Source: Escherichia coli (lineage in GTDB: Bacteria; Pseudomonadota; Gammaproteobacteria; Enterobacterales; Enterobacteriaceae). From it: a DNA stretch of 64,000 nucleotides. Made by a program: the position numbers and the translations under genes. The stretch lies in assembly GCF_050320075.1 (NCBI RefSeq), contig NZ_CP190018.1. The stretch is one strand, 5' to 3'. This document shows, piece by piece, positions 6,289-55,792 of the stretch. Position 1 is the first letter of the stretch. The number at the start of each line of letters is the position of its first letter. The notes under the pieces are model-generated. The model was not told where the DNA came from. It searched no databases and saw only the letters and a list, made by a program, of their open reading frames with translations.

Positions 6289-6425
6289 TGCAACAGGACT
6301 GGCATTCCGCCGACATTATTGCGGTGCTGAAAAAGCGGGGAACGCCTCTGGCGGCACAGAGAAAAACTCATTGCGGAAGCGCTGTAAATATCGCCAGAAA
6401 TCATCTGGCCTTCAAGGTACTTTGA
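6285..6425 (+). pseudogene. Ner/Nlp-like HTH regulator, N-terminal fragment
   Basis: ATGA-coupled to previous ORF; first ~24 aa '[24 protein letters not shown]' match Ner/Nlp family N-terminus, then diverges and terminates after 46 aa. Confidence 0.35.
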
Positions 6426-6637
6426 TAGCAAAGGCAAGCAGGCTGGTTCAGTCCAGTGTTTCTCTTCTTGCATTTTCAGAAATGGGAGGCTGGGAGTCTA
6501 TCGAAATGGTTCGTCGATATGCTCACCTCGCGCCTAATCACCTTACCGAACACGCACGGCAAATAGACTCAGTCCTGAACCCATCGGTCCCAAATTTGTC
6601 CCAGTCAAAAAATAAGGAAGGTACTAATGATGTGTAA
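6371..6637 (+). pseudogene. Tyrosine integrase 3' fragment (C-terminal catalytic-Tyr region only)
   Basis: Translation '[31 protein letters not shown]' parallels the C-terminus of the intact lambdoid integrase at 54542-55702 ('LLALKEMGGWETLEMVQRYAHLSAGHLTEHA'); no N-terminal or core domains present. Confidence 0.6.
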
Positions 6638-6667
6638 CTTATTGATTTTAATGGTGCGATAAGAGGA
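6638..6667. repeat. Degenerate att-like sequence (relic of tRNA-Thr 3' end junction)
   Basis: 'cttattgattttaatggtgcgataagagga' vs 'ctacttgatttaaatggtgccgataatagga' at the int-tRNA junction 55703-55733; ~85% identity, same position relative to integrase stop. Confidence 0.5.
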
Positions 6668-6789
6668 ATGAATATTGCAAGTTAACGCATTGATTTATAA
6701 TAGATTATTATATTCAAAAAATATAACTATACACATATCTATACACACTGCGCGCATCGCTTGTTTTTCGCACAATTAAAAATAAGAAA

Positions 6790-7092
6790 AAAGTTTTTTT
6801 TCGAAAGAACTGTTCACACTGTTCACCTTTCTGTTTTCTCCTTTTATTTCAGTTTGATAGGTGGTGAATAATGGGTGAATGGTGAACATTCGATTCTTCA
6901 CCTCCGGCATTCTGCCGGTGTGACTCATACCGGTGATTAATCCCCCGTACTGAAATCACACAGGGAGAAAAAAAGTTTTTTTTGATTTGATTGTTCACAC
7001 TGTTCACCTTTCATTTTTCTCTTTTAATTTCAGTGTGATAACGGGTGAATATACGGTGAAGGGTGAACAGTGGATTGTTCACCTTCGGGGAA
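6790..7092. repeat. P4 crr-like cis replication region: two ~120-bp direct repeats with TGTTCACC/GGTGAACA octamers
   Basis: Unit 1 ~6790-6900 and unit 2 ~6970-7092 share 'aaagtttttttt...ttgttcacactgttcaccttt...ttcagt(t/g)tgata...gggtgaa...ggtgaaca'; octamer is the P4 alpha-binding iteron. Confidence 0.65.
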
Positions 7093-7100
7093 TTCAGGGA

Positions 7101-7126
7101 TAAAAAAAGACCGGCAGATGCCGGTC
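7101..7126 (-). terminator. Rho-independent terminator after alpha
   Basis: Hairpin gaccggca-gatg-ccggtc followed by T-run on minus strand, just downstream of alpha stop. Confidence 0.6.
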
Positions 7127-7142
7127 AGATGAGTCATGATGG

Positions 7143-53532: not shown

Positions 53533-53922
53533 ATGGGCTTCCCTTCTCCTGCGGCGGATTATGCTGAGAGCCGTATTTCTCTTGATCAGCAGATAATTAG
53601 ACATCCTTCAGCGACCTACTTCATGAGGGCAGCTGATAGTCATCATCGTGAGGGAATATTACAGGGTGCATTGCTGGTGGTCGATTCCTCACTTACCCCG
53701 GTTGATGGTTCTCTGCTTGTATGCGCTCTGGATGGGGAATATCGCGTAAAAAGATACCGGAAGTATCCACGTCAGCATCTGGAGGATTTAAGAACCGGTA
53801 AGAAGGAAGCATTGCCAAAGGATGACGATGGATGCACGGGCAGCAATGCCGTGTTTGGTGTGATCACTCACATTATCAACGACGCAAGAAGTGGCGAGTT
53901 TGATGATTGTCCCGTGATGTAG
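53533..53922 (+). CDS. humD: UmuD'-like protein (HumD-type; begins at the UmuD cleavage site)
   Basis: 'MGFPSPAADYAESRISLDQQIIRHPSATYF' aligns with UmuD from Gly25; conserved Ser/Lys positions; LexA box upstream. Confidence 0.65.
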   Translation: MGFPSPAADYAESRISLDQQIIRHPSATYFMRAADSHHREGILQGALLVVDSSLTPVDGSLLVCALDGEYRVKRYRKYPRQHLEDLRTGKKEALPKDDDGCTGSNAVFGVITHIINDARSGEFDDCPVM

Positions 53923-54227
53923 GAGAACTGATTAGGCGGTGCAATGCACCGCCTTTTTATCACACTGCGCGGAATGCGATTTCGCCAGGTATTACTTCAC
54001 CTTGCCAATACATTTGGACAGCAGACTTTCGGCGATGCGTTGCACTTGTTGAGCAGATTCCAGAAATCAGAGATTCATTCGACAAGGTTGCAAAGCGCGT
54101 TCCGGCATTCAAAGGAATCCTCAACGAATGGGATTCCCTCGTTGATCTGTTGAAGTCTGAAATGAAGATACACGGAAACAAAGCACCAGAGACTTACAGA
54201 AGAATTAGCGAGTTACGCAAGGACTAA
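53907..54227 (+). pseudogene. Possible umuC-like (Y-family polymerase) N-terminal remnant
   Basis: Overlaps humD stop as umuC does; weak matches 'CNAPPFY' and 'DFRRCVALV' to UmuC N-terminus; only 106 codons. Confidence 0.3.
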
Positions 54228-54317
54228 CCACAGCCTCATACTCGATGAGGCCTGTTCATTGCTCAATGATATCCAGACCTACCGCAATAATACCAATCCA
54301 ATAAATGGAGATTCCAG

Positions 54318-54665
54318 GTGGAAGAAGAAATCTTCACTCGTGAAGAGGCAGCGTCGTATCTGAAGGTAGACAAAGGCACTATCACGCAGTGGATACGAAG
54401 TGGACGACTTCAGGCCGCAAAGATAAATCCAGATAAACCTAAAAGCCCATATCGCATTTGCAAGTCAGACTGCATTGCGGCGCTTAAGTCTGTGAGACAC
54501 AATAGCGCGGTGAATGCGGTTGATGTGCAGGAGGTTAAAGCATGTCAATCAAACTACGCGGTGGCACGTGGCACTGCGATTTCGTCGCGCCAGATGGATC
54601 AAGAGTTAGACGCTCTCTTGAAACATCGGACAAAAGGCAAGCGCAAGAACTTCACGATCGTCTGA
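54318..54665 (+). CDS. xis: Excisionase (Xis)
   Basis: HTH 'FTREEAASYLKVDKGTITQWIRSGRL' typical of excisionases; upstream of and overlapping int; true 3' end uncertain. Confidence 0.55.
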   Translation: MEEEIFTREEAASYLKVDKGTITQWIRSGRLQAAKINPDKPKSPYRICKSDCIAALKSVRHNSAVNAVDVQEVKACQSNYAVARGTAISSRQMDQELDALLKHRTKGKRKNFTIV

Positions 54666-55702
54666 AAGCAGAAGCGTGGAGAGTAAAAAATCTCGGGGAA
54701 TCACCGAAAAAGCTATTCAAGGAAGCCTGCATACGGTGGCTGCGTGAGAAATCGGATAAGAAGTCCATTGATGATGACAAGAGCATTATATCGTTCTGGA
54801 TGTTGCACTTCAGAGAAGCCATTCTCTCTGACATAACAACAGAAAAAATAATGGAGGCGGTAGATGGGATGGAAAACCGCCGCCATCGCCTGAACTGGGA
54901 GATGAGCCGGGACAGGTGTTTGCGACTTGGCAATCCGGTGCCGGAGTATAAACCAAAGCTTGCAAGCAAAGGAACGAAGACGAGGCATCTGGCAATACTT
55001 CGCGCCATTCTCAATATGGCTGTTGAATGGGGATGGCTTGACAGGGCACCCAAAATATCAACACCACGCGTTAAGAATGGACGCATCAGATGGCTTACAG
55101 AGGAGGAATCGAAGCGCCTGTTTGCAGAAATTGCTCCTCACTTCTTCCCTGTGGTCATGTTTGCAATCACGACAGGCCTTCGCCGTTCCAACGTTACAGA
55201 CCTTGAGTGGTCACAGGTCGATCTGGATAAGAAAATGGCATGGATACACCCTGATGAAACAAAAGCTGGCAATGCGATCGGAGTTCCTCTTAACGAAACC
55301 GCATGCCAGATATTAAGAAAACAGCAGGGGCTCCATAAGAGATGGGTATTTGTCCACACCAAACCTGCCTACCGAAGCGACGGAACAAAAACAGCAGCGG
55401 TAAGGAAGATGAGAACCGACAGCAACAAGGCATGGAAGGGAGCGTTAAAGCGGGCAGGCATTAGTAACTTCCGCTTCCATGATCTGAGGCATACCTGGGC
55501 AAGCTGGCTGGTTCAGTCCGGTGTCTCTCTTCTTGCACTTAAAGAGATGGGAGGATGGGAAACTCTCGAAATGGTTCAAAGATACGCCCACCTTTCAGCC
55601 GGGCATCTCACCGAGCACGCAAGCAAAATCGATGCGATTATAAGTCGCAATGGCACAAATACGGCACAAGAGGAGAACGTGGTGTATTTAAATATGGGGT
55701 AA
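54542..55702 (+). CDS. int: Lambdoid tyrosine integrase
   Basis: 386 aa; catalytic 'HDLRHT' and 'RYAHL' motifs; stop 14 bp from att core. Confidence 0.85.
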   Translation: MSIKLRGGTWHCDFVAPDGSRVRRSLETSDKRQAQELHDRLKAEAWRVKNLGESPKKLFKEACIRWLREKSDKKSIDDDKSIISFWMLHFREAILSDITTEKIMEAVDGMENRRHRLNWEMSRDRCLRLGNPVPEYKPKLASKGTKTRHLAILRAILNMAVEWGWLDRAPKISTPRVKNGRIRWLTEEESKRLFAEIAPHFFPVVMFAITTGLRRSNVTDLEWSQVDLDKKMAWIHPDETKAGNAIGVPLNETACQILRKQQGLHKRWVFVHTKPAYRSDGTKTAAVRKMRTDSNKAWKGALKRAGISNFRFHDLRHTWASWLVQSGVSLLALKEMGGWETLEMVQRYAHLSAGHLTEHASKIDAIISRNGTNTAQEENVVYLNMG

Positions 55703-55715
55703 CTACTTGATTTAA

Positions 55716-55762
55716 ATGGTGCCGATAATAGGAGTCGAACCTACGACCTTCGCATTACGAAT
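55716..55762. repeat. attL core: 47-bp identical to 16849-16895 (within tRNA-Thr 3' half)
   Basis: Exact 47-bp direct repeat. Confidence 0.85.
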
Positions 55763-55792
55763 GCGCTGCTCTACCAACTGAGCTATATCGGC
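55717..55792 (-). tRNA. thrW: tRNA-Thr
   Basis: Reverse complement reads 'GCCGATATAGCTCAGTTGGTAGAGCAGCGCATTCGTAATGCGAAGGTCGTAGGTTCGACTCCTATTATCGGCACCA' with CGT anticodon context. Confidence 0.85.

What the first reader, a model, noticed from the sequence alone, without database searches (positions are those of the whole stretch)
6371..55792. Three-element tandem array at tRNA-Thr: lambdoid prophage + P4-like satellite + decayed defence island
An exact 47-bp copy of the tRNA-Thr 3' half occurs at 55716-55762 (inside the intact tRNA, next to the lambdoid int) and at 16849-16895 (next to the P4-type int). A third, degenerate copy at 6638-6667 follows an integrase 3' gene fragment (6371-6637) whose translation parallels the C-terminus of the intact lambdoid integrase. 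This implies successive integrations at the same att site, with the oldest unit reduced to cargo plus an int stub. No P2-type helper for the P4-like satellite is visible in this window.
Basis: seen in the sequence. Interest (0 to 1): 0.55.

Follow-up and report, generated by a model that had tools for sequence, protein, structure and literature searches.

The report
Three mobile elements stacked at thrW
Downstream of the E. coli threonine tRNA gene thrW sit an apparently intact P22-like prophage, an apparently intact P4-like satellite and an immobile remnant carrying two anti-phage systems; this is a clear but ordinary example of repeated integration at one tRNA site.

Summary
The window is E. 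coli YZLc1-3, proBA-thrW locus. The 47-bp repeat (16849-16895 = 55716-55762) is exact. It bounds a 38.9-kb P22-like (HK620/Sf6-type) prophage, and joining its ends recreates an attP found contiguous in free phages.

Left of it lies a 10.2-kb P4-like satellite with the P4 core genes, the exact P2/P4 cos 19-mer, C4/isrK immunity RNAs and a HEPN gene in the known defence hotspot.

The "third copy" (true extent 6651-6667) is the satellite's own distal att. Its core is only 18-19 bp, so tRNA similarity stops there by construction, not by decay.

Left of that sits a 60-residue integrase C-terminal stub, then AbiE, a UG5 RT-nitrilase (DRT) and a second, orphan isrK/C4 pair. No distal att survives.

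Complete genomes show every occupancy state: empty (about 948 genomes), remnant only, satellite only, remnant plus prophage. The triple array occurs in one of 5,426 genomes.

Two near-identical sister strains carry the same prophage without the satellite, and one has an att mosaic that looks like an excision scar. A test with one P2 gene (terminase gpP) found no homologue in this chromosome.

Verdict: interpretation supported, known phenomenon, low interest. The order of arrival of satellite and prophage is unresolved.

The parts
55717..55792 (-). thrW, intact tRNA-Thr(CGT); its 3' 46 nt plus 1 nt form the proximal att copy (55716-55762)
   Evidence: ARAGORN; Rfam tRNA; RefSeq annotation
16896..55715 (.). 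P22-like (HK620/Sf6-type) temperate prophage. Repeat spacing is 38,867 bp. Gene set looks complete: int/xis, erf, N, LexA-family repressor, cro, cII, replication, nin, Q, lysis, terminase, portal, scaffold, coat, gp4/gp10/needle, ejection proteins, tailspike, O-acetyltransferase moron
   Evidence: RefSeq annotation; 95-97% nt identity to vB_EcoP-611R6, HK620 and Sf6 over the virion module; PHROGs
54542..55702 (+). P22-type tyrosine integrase (RefSeq start 54548). The xis-like HTH gene lies at 54318-54665. The gene ends 14 nt from the att core
   Evidence: joining the prophage ends gives an attP that is contiguous in free phages HK542, mEp213, HK75 and SfX, where it is annotated 'attP similar to thrW and ptwF'
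16849..16895 (.). Internal 47-bp att copy. It is the distal junction of the prophage. Its left 18 bp (16849-16866) also serve as the int-proximal core of the satellite
6668..16848 (.). P4-like satellite, about 10.2 kb between its two cores. Recurs as a unit (window 6634-16895) at 97-99% identity in many E. coli genomes
   Evidence: 165 genomes carry this distal end
15480..16685 (-). P4-type tyrosine integrase, 401 aa. Only 22% identical over 127 aa to the prophage integrase
   Evidence: NCBIfam PRK09692 E 1.9e-93
14123..15508 (-). HEPN-annotated gene (461-464 aa) in the int-psu hotspot beside cos; candidate anti-phage cargo. Other copies of the satellite carry SIR2, ORC/Cdc6 ATPase or nuclease/UvrD genes at this position
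   Evidence: RefSeq name; variable cargo; Pfam HEPN_Apea only i-E 0.08; no PADLOC, PHROG or NCBIfam hit; hotspot described in PMC9122126
14086..14104 (+). cos: exact match to the 19-nt P2 cosL cohesive end
   Evidence: 0 mismatches, 0 expected by chance; identical to P2 NC_001895 positions 1-19
12044..13921 (+). Late operon: sid (12044-12778), delta (12775-13275), psu (13349-13921)
   Evidence: PHROGs 6165, 603 and 6366; RefSeq names
7143..11492 (-). Early/immunity region: alpA-like HTH (11226-11492), isrK RNA (11077-11154), C4 (CI-type) antisense RNA (10927-11014), ash/icd ORF (10675-11229), epsilon-position ORF (10395-10682), orf151, DUF5375, alpha primase-helicase (7143-9476)
   Evidence: Rfam; PHROGs; TIGR01613; annotation
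6785..7088 (.). Two about 123-bp direct repeats (6785-6907 and 6966-7088, 80% identical) between alpha and att, where P4 has its crr replication element
   Evidence: D2; present in every copy of the satellite; the crr assignment comes from my memory of P4 biology and was not tested
6651..6667 (.). Satellite arm sequence starts at 6668
   Evidence: Copies with the intact 18-bp core ATGGTGCCGATAATAGGA exist (L013, L014). The G at 6664 is unique among 165 genomes and matches the remnant-lineage thrW variant
6433..6650 (+). Integrase C-terminal stub (stop at 6635-6637) plus a 13-nt spacer
   Evidence: It is 97% identical to the 3' end of an intact integrase of a lambdoid prophage at thrW in strain HCM-21C-2
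266..6432 (.). Remnant cargo: AbiEii (257-1177, -), AbiEi (1164-1946, -), UG5 RT-nitrilase DRT (2262-5471, +), orphan isrK (5575-5653, +) and C4 (5676-5764, +), orf156 (5818-6288), HTH fragment (6285-6384). The block is present in 258 genomes
   Evidence: PADLOC; Rfam; left border at about 265 by comparison with strain C325
35..103 (+). ykgR fragment, the chromosomal backbone left of the array
   Evidence: RefSeq annotation
34965..35405 (-). Small-terminase-position gene of the prophage. If a pac site lies here as in P22, headful packaging would run leftwards through the satellite and the remnant
   Evidence: gene order; direction rule for P22 from PMC8575938; inference only

Best explanation
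Three genetic elements that target the 3' end of thrW have accumulated side by side between thrW and the chromosomal backbone.

(1) A P22-like temperate phage. Its integrase recombines within a 47-bp core, and it sits next to the working tRNA gene.

(2) A P4-like satellite. Its unrelated integrase uses only the last 18-19 bp of the same tRNA. It is flanked by that short core on both sides, perfect on the integrase side inside the 47-bp copy. On the far side the core carries a 1-nt deletion and one substitution.

(3) An immobile remnant. It consists of the last 60-70 codons of a P22-type integrase, a P4-type immunity-RNA pair, and two defence systems (AbiE and a UG5 RT-nitrilase DRT). It has no far-side att.

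Shown here: the boundaries, the gene content, the independence of the units, and the age ranking. The remnant is in 258 genomes and in all sister strains. This particular prophage was seen in three strains, and the satellite at this internal position was seen only in this one.

Inferred: both the prophage and the satellite are still able to excise. The satellite has recently moved in or out at the internal att copy within this clone. Without a P2-type helper it can spread only if a P2-like phage superinfects the cell, or passively with neighbouring DNA.
For: - Repeat and tRNA.
- Locus identity (proBA-thrW, strain YZLc1-3).
- Prophage: complete P22-type gene set, 95-97% identity to HK620/Sf6-type phages, and a reconstructed attP that is contiguous in free phages.
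- Satellite: core genes, exact P2 cos, C4/isrK RNAs, and recurrence as a bounded unit next to intact thrW.
- Junction alignments giving an 18-19-bp core.
- Remnant: PADLOC hits for AbiEi, AbiEii and RT_UG5-nitrilase; stub homology; remnant abutting an intact thrW in CFSAN061763.
- Empty site in about 948 genomes.
- Sister strains with the same prophage (99.95-99.97% over 10.4 kb) but no satellite.
- In Ec-U3 the internal att copy equals the left part of 6651-6667 joined to the right part of 16849-16895.
- No added match in this chromosome when 1.5 kb of P2 gpP was appended to a control query.
Against: - The remnant has no second att copy (none found) and no integrase, so its origin by site-specific integration is inferred from the stub alone.
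- The stub's left breakpoint recurs elsewhere with other neighbours, so the cargo may have arrived separately.
- The att-copy variants do not fit a simple remnant, then satellite, then prophage order. Remnant-lineage thrW carries a compensatory G..C pair, yet the internal 47-bp copy here is the K-12 type (T..A).
- The satellite's far-side core is imperfect, which could impair excision.
- Nothing here shows activity directly.
- The helper test used one P2 gene, at roughly 65-70% nucleotide identity or better, on the chromosome record only.
Confidence: 0.88

Rival explanations
1. The region 6.4-55.8 kb is one composite island acquired in a single event, and the internal att-like sequences are relics with no independent history.
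For: Only one of 5,426 genomes carries the full array, so this exact combination was never seen to assemble stepwise.
Against: Each unit occurs alone or in other combinations at the same site, with the same boundaries. The prophage attP is contiguous in free phages.
Confidence: 0.02
2. The satellite arrived last. It integrated into the internal, non-functional 47-bp att copy between the remnant and an already resident prophage, so array order does not reflect age.
For: Two sister strains share the remnant and the same prophage (99.95-99.97%) and lack the satellite. The 18-bp satellite core is contained in the internal 47-bp copy. The internal copy in Ec-U3 (-C, T, A) could be either the target or the scar.
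Against: Integration into the pristine internal copy seen in SB0258h1 (CC, G, C) would leave a C at the second variant site of 16849-16895, but the window has A. Ec-U3's 1-nt deletion is the one typical of satellite far-side junctions, which favours a scar.
Confidence: 0.35
3. The remnant is not a decayed thrW-integrated element. An ancient integrase stub lay downstream of thrW, and the AbiE/DRT/isrK-C4 block was later placed beside it by homologous replacement or illegitimate recombination.
For: A different 70-nt integrase remnant lies downstream of thrW in about 948 empty-site genomes and in K-12. The stub breakpoint at about 6444 recurs with yagU or a phage left-end gene on its left. The block has no left att. 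The block replaces 2.5 kb of backbone present in strain C325. The isrK/C4 pair is P4-type, not P22-type.
Against: The block always ends at the stub in 258 genomes. Remnant-lineage thrW carries a foreign-looking compensatory variant in its 3' half, as expected after a site-specific integration.
Confidence: 0.4
4. The 47-bp identity between 16849-16895 and 55716-55762 results from gene conversion or an assembly artefact rather than from prophage integration.
For: Both copies are the K-12 type, although the lineage's ancestral thrW is the G..C variant. This would fit homogenisation.
Against: SB0258h1 and MLI108K3 keep two mismatches between their copies, yet have the same prophage boundaries. The boundaries coincide with a free-phage attP.
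Confidence: 0.05

Closest known systems
CP4-6 cryptic prophage and the ptwF pseudo-tRNA at thrW in E. coli K-12
   Same: Same attachment site. A partial thrW 3' copy marks the far end. In K-12 a 48-bp copy sits next to a 70-nt P22-type integrase remnant and yagP. Free-phage records annotate their attP as 'similar to thrW and ptwF'.
   Different: CP4-6 is one 34-kb decayed element with a different integrase (intF) at its far end. The window holds three units, two of which look intact.
Tandem lysogeny of Shigella flexneri serotype-converting phages SfX and SfI at thrW (PMC3306764)
   Same: Two elements integrated head to tail downstream of proA-thrW, with an att copy between them. SfX int-attP is 95.5% identical to the reconstructed attP here. 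O-antigen modification genes lie at the end opposite int.
   Different: There, both units are phages using the same integrase type and were produced experimentally. Here the units use two unrelated integrases with nested cores of 47 bp and 18-19 bp, and one unit is a satellite.
Satellite phage P4 and the P4-like family (PMC8628076; hotspots in PMC9122126)
   Same: Gene order int-hotspot-cos-psu-delta-sid ... alpA-CI RNA-epsilon-alpha-att. Identical cos 19-mer. Short att core at the 3' end of a tRNA. Variable defence cargo between int and psu.
   Different: It integrates in thrW rather than leuX. It carries a HEPN-annotated gene instead of P4's gop/beta/cII. It sits distal to another prophage in a strain with no detectable P2 gpP homologue in its chromosome.
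Phages HK620 and Sf6 (P22-like podoviruses)
   Same: 95-97% nucleotide identity across the terminase-to-ejection-protein module, a similar genome size, and a tailspike plus O-antigen acetyltransferase at the att-distal end.
   Different: Mosaic early region and tailspike: at most 68% of 24.9 kb is covered by any one phage record. As I recall, Sf6 integrates at argW, not thrW.
thrW-associated islands of pathogenic E. coli (for example the vat island)
   Same: In several genomes the same satellite and an integrase stub lie between thrW and a vat-encoding segment (H13, H15 and H16).
   Different: The cargo here is anti-phage (AbiE, DRT), not a virulence factor.

Membership tests
P4-like phage satellite (seven core components, PMC8628076) | Tyrosine integrase at one end, next to the tRNA | tested here: met
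   Gene at 15480-16685; NCBIfam PRK09692 E 1.9e-93, though below that model's curated cutoff; lies 163 nt from the att core
P4-like phage satellite (seven core components, PMC8628076) | psu, delta and sid late genes in that order | tested here: met
   PHROGs 6366 (E 5.5e-101), 603 (E 5.5e-67) and 6165 (E 2e-115); RefSeq names 'polarity suppression', 'ogr/Delta-like' and, for orthologues, 'glycoprotein 3'
P4-like phage satellite (seven core components, PMC8628076) | alpA-type regulator and alpha primase-helicase | tested here: met
   PHROG 2790/66 for 11226-11492. For 7143-9476: PHROG 2249 E 3.5e-242 and TIGR01613, scoring exactly at its cutoff
P4-like phage satellite (seven core components, PMC8628076) | epsilon (derepression protein) | tested here: inconclusive
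   The 95-aa ORF at 10395-10682 sits at the expected position but hits only PHROGs of unknown function. A close orthologue is named 'derepression protein' in one RefSeq record
P4-like phage satellite (seven core components, PMC8628076) | P2-type cos site between psu and int | tested here: met
   Exact 19-mer at 14086-14104, identical to P2 cosL
P4-like phage satellite (seven core components, PMC8628076) | Mobilisation by a P2-like helper | not testable with these tools
   No P2 gpP homologue was detected in this chromosome. Activity would need a superinfection experiment
P22-like temperate phage (prophage form) | P22-type virion module with tailspike head-binding domain | tested here: met
   RefSeq annotation; 95-97% identity to HK620/Sf6; PHROG tailspike hits
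P22-like temperate phage (prophage form) | Lambdoid regulatory, replication and lysis modules without disrupted essential genes | tested here: met
   N, LexA-family repressor, cro, cII, replication, nin, Q, holin, lysozyme and Rz are annotated intact. Pseudogene flags fall only on accessory ORFs
P22-like temperate phage (prophage form) | int-attP arrangement that recreates a phage attP when the ends are joined | tested here: met
   The junction is contiguous over query positions 1-572 in HK542, mEp213, HK75, mEpX2, HK446, ECP1 and SfX at 95-96% identity
P22-like temperate phage (prophage form) | Inducible and produces virions | not testable with these tools
   Would need induction and plaque or sequencing assays
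Tandem array formed by site-specific integration at one tRNA attB | A copy of the tRNA 3' end at every inter-element junction, in direct orientation | tested here: met
   Copies at 55716-55762, 16849-16895 and 6651-6667
Tandem array formed by site-specific integration at one tRNA attB | Each unit found separately at the same site, and an empty site exists | tested here: met
Tandem array formed by site-specific integration at one tRNA attB | Each unit bounded by two att copies and carrying its own integrase | tested here: not met
   Met for the prophage and the satellite. The remnant has only a 60-70-codon integrase stub and no far-side att, so it qualifies only as a presumed relic
AbiE abortive-infection / type IV toxin-antitoxin pair | Adjacent AbiEi antitoxin and AbiEii nucleotidyltransferase genes | tested here: met
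   PADLOC AbiEii E 4.4e-116 and AbiEi E 5.1e-80; the genes overlap by 14 nt
Defence-associated reverse transcriptase, UG5 RT-nitrilase type | Single large protein with an RT domain fused to a C-terminal nitrilase domain | tested here: met
   PADLOC RT_UG5-nitrilase, 1034 bits, covering residues 1-1068; RTasNitrilase over residues 783-1058. Anti-phage activity not testable

The most novel reading that the evidence does not exclude
Natural variants in the att copies of this clone record the satellite moving in or out of an internal, non-tRNA att copy. They bracket the strand-exchange region of this thrW-specific P4-type integrase to the heptamer CGATAA(T/G) at 6658-6664. In addition, the satellite has no P2 gpP homologue in its chromosome, and it and the AbiE/DRT block lie within about 35 kb downstream (in the packaging direction) of the neighbouring P22-like prophage's small-terminase gene. 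They could therefore be exported in the first lateral-transduction headful without any P2 phage.
Probability: 0.3. Interest if true: 0.4.

Novelty: new member of a known kind. Interest (0 to 1): 0.2.

Why it matters
Scientifically the finding matters little. It is a well-resolved example of how one tRNA gene collects phages, satellites and defence genes.

It has three practical uses:
- It gives precise boundaries and att cores (47 bp and a nested 18-19 bp) for two integrase families that share thrW.
- It offers a set of near-isogenic natural strains (YZLc1-3, Ec-U3, SB0258h1) that differ by one satellite. These are convenient for testing satellite excision, the HEPN cargo gene, and export of defence genes by a neighbouring prophage.
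- It warns that position in such an array cannot be read as order of arrival.

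Tried and rejected
- Fourth att copy. I searched for one at the left border of the remnant, using the 47-mer and its 25-nt halves with up to 25% substitutions on both strands. Only the two exact copies were found. A first regex scan with indels timed out.
- HEPN gene. It has no hit in PADLOC, NCBIfam or PHROGs. Pfam gives only HEPN_Apea at i-E 0.08. Its function rests on the RefSeq name and on its position in the hotspot.
- orf156 in the remnant. It is not similar to orf151 of the satellite and has no PHROG hit.
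- Order of events. I tried to derive it from three variable positions in the att copies: the C indel, the T/G site and the A/C site. Ec-U3 fits a satellite excision scar. However, no single-step path from a remnant-type target yields the K-12-type internal copy seen in the window. This is left unresolved.
- K-12-type thrW in the remnant lineage. No genome has the remnant abutting a K-12-type thrW; the best match is 99.7%.
- Composite-island reading. Considered and rejected.
- Stub allele. I considered that the stub here equals the 70-nt ancestral remnant of K-12. It does not; it is a different allele.

Full report
**Identity of the window.** The window matches E. coli strain YZLc1-3 (NZ_CP123240.1, 3959582-4023581) at 99.9-100% identity. 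The right part is the conserved pepD-gpt-frsA-crl-phoE-proB-proA-thrW backbone. ARAGORN finds a single tRNA, tRNA-Thr(CGT), at 55717-55792 on the minus strand. This is thrW. To the left, the backbone resumes with a ykgR fragment at 35-103 and LysR, hydrolase, MFS and paoD genes.

**Check of the observation.** The 47-bp repeat 16849-16895 = 55716-55762 is exact.
- The integrase fragment is genuine. At nucleotide level, 6433-6567 is 77% identical to 55498-55632. The translation is 60% identical over 60 residues to the C-terminus of the intact integrase, E 1e-23, and includes the catalytic-tyrosine motif.
- The TTG-initiated ORF start at 6371 is not meaningful. Integrase-derived sequence starts about 6433-6444.
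- The 'third copy' splits into two parts. Positions 6638-6650 are a 13-nt spacer homologous to the int-att spacer of the prophage. Positions 6651-6667 are tRNA-like, with one missing C and one T-to-G change. After 6667 the sequence is unrelated to the tRNA.

**The prophage (16896-55715).** RefSeq annotation shows a complete P22-type gene set: integrase and excisionase-like gene, erf, anti-RecBCD, N, LexA-family repressor, cro, cII, replication, nin genes, Q, lysis, terminase, portal, scaffold, coat, gp4, gp10, needle, ejection proteins and tailspike. An O-antigen acetyltransferase sits at the far end.
- The virion module is 95-97% identical to vB_EcoP-611R6, HK620 and Sf6. No single phage record covers more than 68% of the 24.9 kb tested, so the genome is a mosaic.
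- Joining the two prophage ends in silico gives an int-core-arm sequence. That sequence is contiguous over 572 nt at 95-96% identity in the free phages HK542, mEp213, mEp043, HK75, mEpX2, HK446, ECP1 and SfX, whose records label it attP, 'similar to thrW and ptwF'.
- This fixes the prophage boundaries and the 47-bp core.

**The satellite (between 6651 and 16866).**
- From the integrase end it carries: a P4-type integrase; a HEPN-annotated gene; the exact 19-nt P2 cos end at 14086-14104 (0 expected by chance, identical to P2 positions 1-19); psu, delta and sid; an alpA-type regulator; isrK and C4 (CI-type) RNAs; an ash/icd ORF; an epsilon-position ORF; two small ORFs; the alpha primase-helicase; and a pair of 123-bp repeats.
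- This is the architecture that defines P4-like satellites in PMC8628076. The HEPN gene occupies the int-psu hotspot next to cos described in PMC9122126, which lists HEPN-domain cargo. Other copies of the same satellite carry SIR2, ORC/Cdc6-type ATPase or nuclease/UvrD genes at that position.
- The unit 6634-16895 recurs at 97-99% identity next to an intact thrW in many genomes. Its far end is present in 165 genomes.

**The satellite's att core.** I aligned the far-side junctions from eight genomes with different left flanks.
- The sequence shared with thrW is ATGGTGCCGATAATAGGA, 18-19 bp, intact in two genomes (L013, L014) and lacking one C in most.
- It is followed in all copies by the same satellite arm (ATGAATATTGCAAG...).
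- The third copy is therefore short by construction. The satellite integrase is only 22% identical to the prophage integrase over 127 residues and uses a core nested inside the 47-bp core.

**The remnant (266-6650).**
- PADLOC identifies AbiEii and AbiEi (E 4e-116 and 5e-80) and a UG5 RT-nitrilase defence reverse transcriptase (1034 bits, full length).
- Rfam finds a second isrK/C4 pair at 5575-5764, 77% identical to the one in the satellite. The remnant therefore contains a P4-type immunity fragment as well as a P22-type integrase stub.
- The stub is 97% identical to the 3' end of a full-length integrase of a lambdoid prophage at thrW in strain HCM-21C-2.
- The block is present in 258 of 5,426 genomes.
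- Its left border (about 265) is not an att site, and no further att copy exists. Compared with strain C325, it replaces about 2.5 kb of backbone.
- The stub's left breakpoint (about 6444) recurs in other lineages with yagU or a phage left-end gene on its left. The stub may therefore be older than the cargo. I rate 'one decayed integrated element' and 'cargo placed beside an older stub' as roughly equally likely.

**Occupancy states in other genomes.**
- Empty site: a synthetic empty site (yagP, then a 70-nt P22-type integrase remnant, then thrW and proA) is matched at 100% in ATCC 8739 and others, and at 80% coverage or better in 948 genomes. K-12 keeps that same remnant plus a 48-bp thrW copy at the far end of CP4-6.
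- Remnant only: CFSAN061763.
- Remnant plus a different P22-like prophage: MLI108K3.
- Remnant plus the same prophage: SB0258h1 and Ec-U3.
- Satellite only: 504237, C325 and CH10508.
- Satellite plus an unrelated prophage: EC19.
- Triple array: YZLc1-3 alone.
The region is not a single contiguous element.

**Recent satellite movement.**
- SB0258h1 and Ec-U3 are 100% identical to the window over the 8.3-kb thrW flank. They are 99.95-99.97% identical over the remnant and over 10.4 kb of the prophage.
- Remnant-lineage thrW carries a compensatory T-stem variant, G and C in window orientation. SB0258h1 and MLI108K3 keep it in their internal 47-bp copy, while the working thrW takes the phage-borne K-12 type. 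This places the prophage crossover 5' of the T-arm.
- The internal copy in Ec-U3 instead reads ATGGTG-CGATAATAGG...CCTACG. That is the left end of the window's 6651-6667 junction joined to the right part of 16849-16895. Satellite excision from a YZLc1-3-type array would leave exactly this if exchange occurs within CGATAA(T/G).
- The G at 6664 is unique among the 165 far-side junctions and matches the remnant-lineage variant. That position therefore seems to lie in or beside the exchanged segment.
- These points are inferences from a few sequences.
- They also leave a contradiction. The internal copy in the window is K-12 type at the A/C site, which lies outside the satellite core. No single integration into a remnant-type target explains this.
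- The order of arrival of satellite and prophage is therefore unresolved. I give about 0.35 to the satellite arriving last, at the internal copy.

**Helper.** The window holds no P2-type gene. To test the rest of the chromosome I compared two searches. A 2-kb control query unique to this strain gave 5 places in NZ_CP123240.1. The same query with 1.5 kb of P2 terminase gene P appended also gave 5 places, while the total over all genomes rose by 3,328 places. This chromosome therefore has no gpP homologue detectable at roughly 65-70% nucleotide identity. Plasmids and very divergent helpers were not excluded.

**Comparison with what is known.**
- thrW is an established attachment site. Examples are CP4-6 and ptwF in K-12 and the Shigella serotype-converting phages, for which tandem SfI and SfX integration was shown experimentally (PMC3306764).
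- P4-like satellites occur in almost half of E. coli genomes (PMC8628076).
- Their defence hotspot is described (PMC9122126).
- The location of defence genes next to phage attachment sites, and their export by lateral transduction, has also been published (PMC12829572 and PMC8575938).
- The array is therefore a new instance of known kinds.

**Speculative extension.** The prophage's small-terminase-position gene (34965-35405, minus strand) points towards the satellite and the remnant, which end about 35 kb away. That is within one headful if packaging starts there, as it does in P22. This rests on gene order only.

**Verdict.** Novelty is low and interest is 0.2.

Noticed in passing
window 5575-5653 (+) and 5676-5764 (+): A second isrK sRNA / C4 antisense RNA pair lies inside the remnant, 77% identical to the pair in the intact satellite (11077-11154 and 10927-11014). 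The RefSeq 'ash family protein' CDS at 5608-5772 overlaps these RNAs. It suggests the remnant includes a piece of an older P4-type element.
   Followed up: partly
L006 9553-9628; L007 and L011 internal att copies; window 6664: thrW in remnant-bearing strains carries a compensatory T-stem change (U50-A64 to G50-C64). ARAGORN still calls it tRNA-Thr. No genome has the remnant next to a K-12-type thrW (best match 99.7%).
   Followed up: partly
window 16849-16895 versus L011/L012 around 9001-9050: The internal 47-bp copy in the window is K-12 type at both variant sites, although the lineage's thrW is the G..C type. I found no single-step history that explains this together with the G at 6664.
   Followed up: partly
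L005 (K-12) reverse complement of 297205-297330; synthetic query: A 70-nt remnant of a P22-type integrase 3' end lies immediately downstream of thrW, or of its displaced copy, next to yagP. It is seen in K-12 and in about 948 'empty-site' genomes. This is an ancient, fixed prophage scar.
   Followed up: yes
window 55650-55667 and 17001-17018; window 16763-16779 and 16816-16832: Repeated motifs flank the att cores. ATGGCACAAATACGGCAC occurs on both arms of the prophage attP. TATGGAC(A/T)AA(T/C)ACGGAC occurs twice on the integrase-side arm of the satellite. These are likely arm-type integrase binding sites, and the two motifs resemble each other although the integrases are only 22% identical.
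   Followed up: partly
window 14123-15508 (-): The hotspot cargo gene is annotated HEPN but has no hit in PADLOC, PHROGs or NCBIfam, and only a marginal Pfam HEPN_Apea match (i-E 0.08). It overlaps the integrase gene by 29 nt. It is a candidate single-gene defence system of unknown type.
   Followed up: partly
window 17886-19010 (-) and 17127-17621 (-): The prophage end opposite int carries an O-antigen acetyltransferase-type acyltransferase, a small membrane-protein gene (PHROG 1443) and a tail-fibre gene fragment. This is a probable serotype-modifying moron region. A relative of the small gene abuts the integrase stub in strains KA0011 and R8.
   Followed up: partly
window 53533-53922 (+): A UmuD-like S24 peptidase gene lies in the prophage early-left region near int. 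No umuC partner is annotated beside it.
   Followed up: no
L009 (strain EC19) 19250-28458: In EC19 the same satellite is followed by a different prophage with Mu/P2-type baseplate and tail-fibre genes, in place of the P22-like one. Satellite-plus-prophage tandems at thrW therefore recur with different partners.
   Followed up: no
window 10675-11229 (-): RefSeq splits this region into an Icd-like CDS and an 'ash family' pseudogene. It is one uninterrupted 184-aa ORF that matches PHROG 6928 over its full length, so the pseudogene call may be an annotation artefact.
   Followed up: partly
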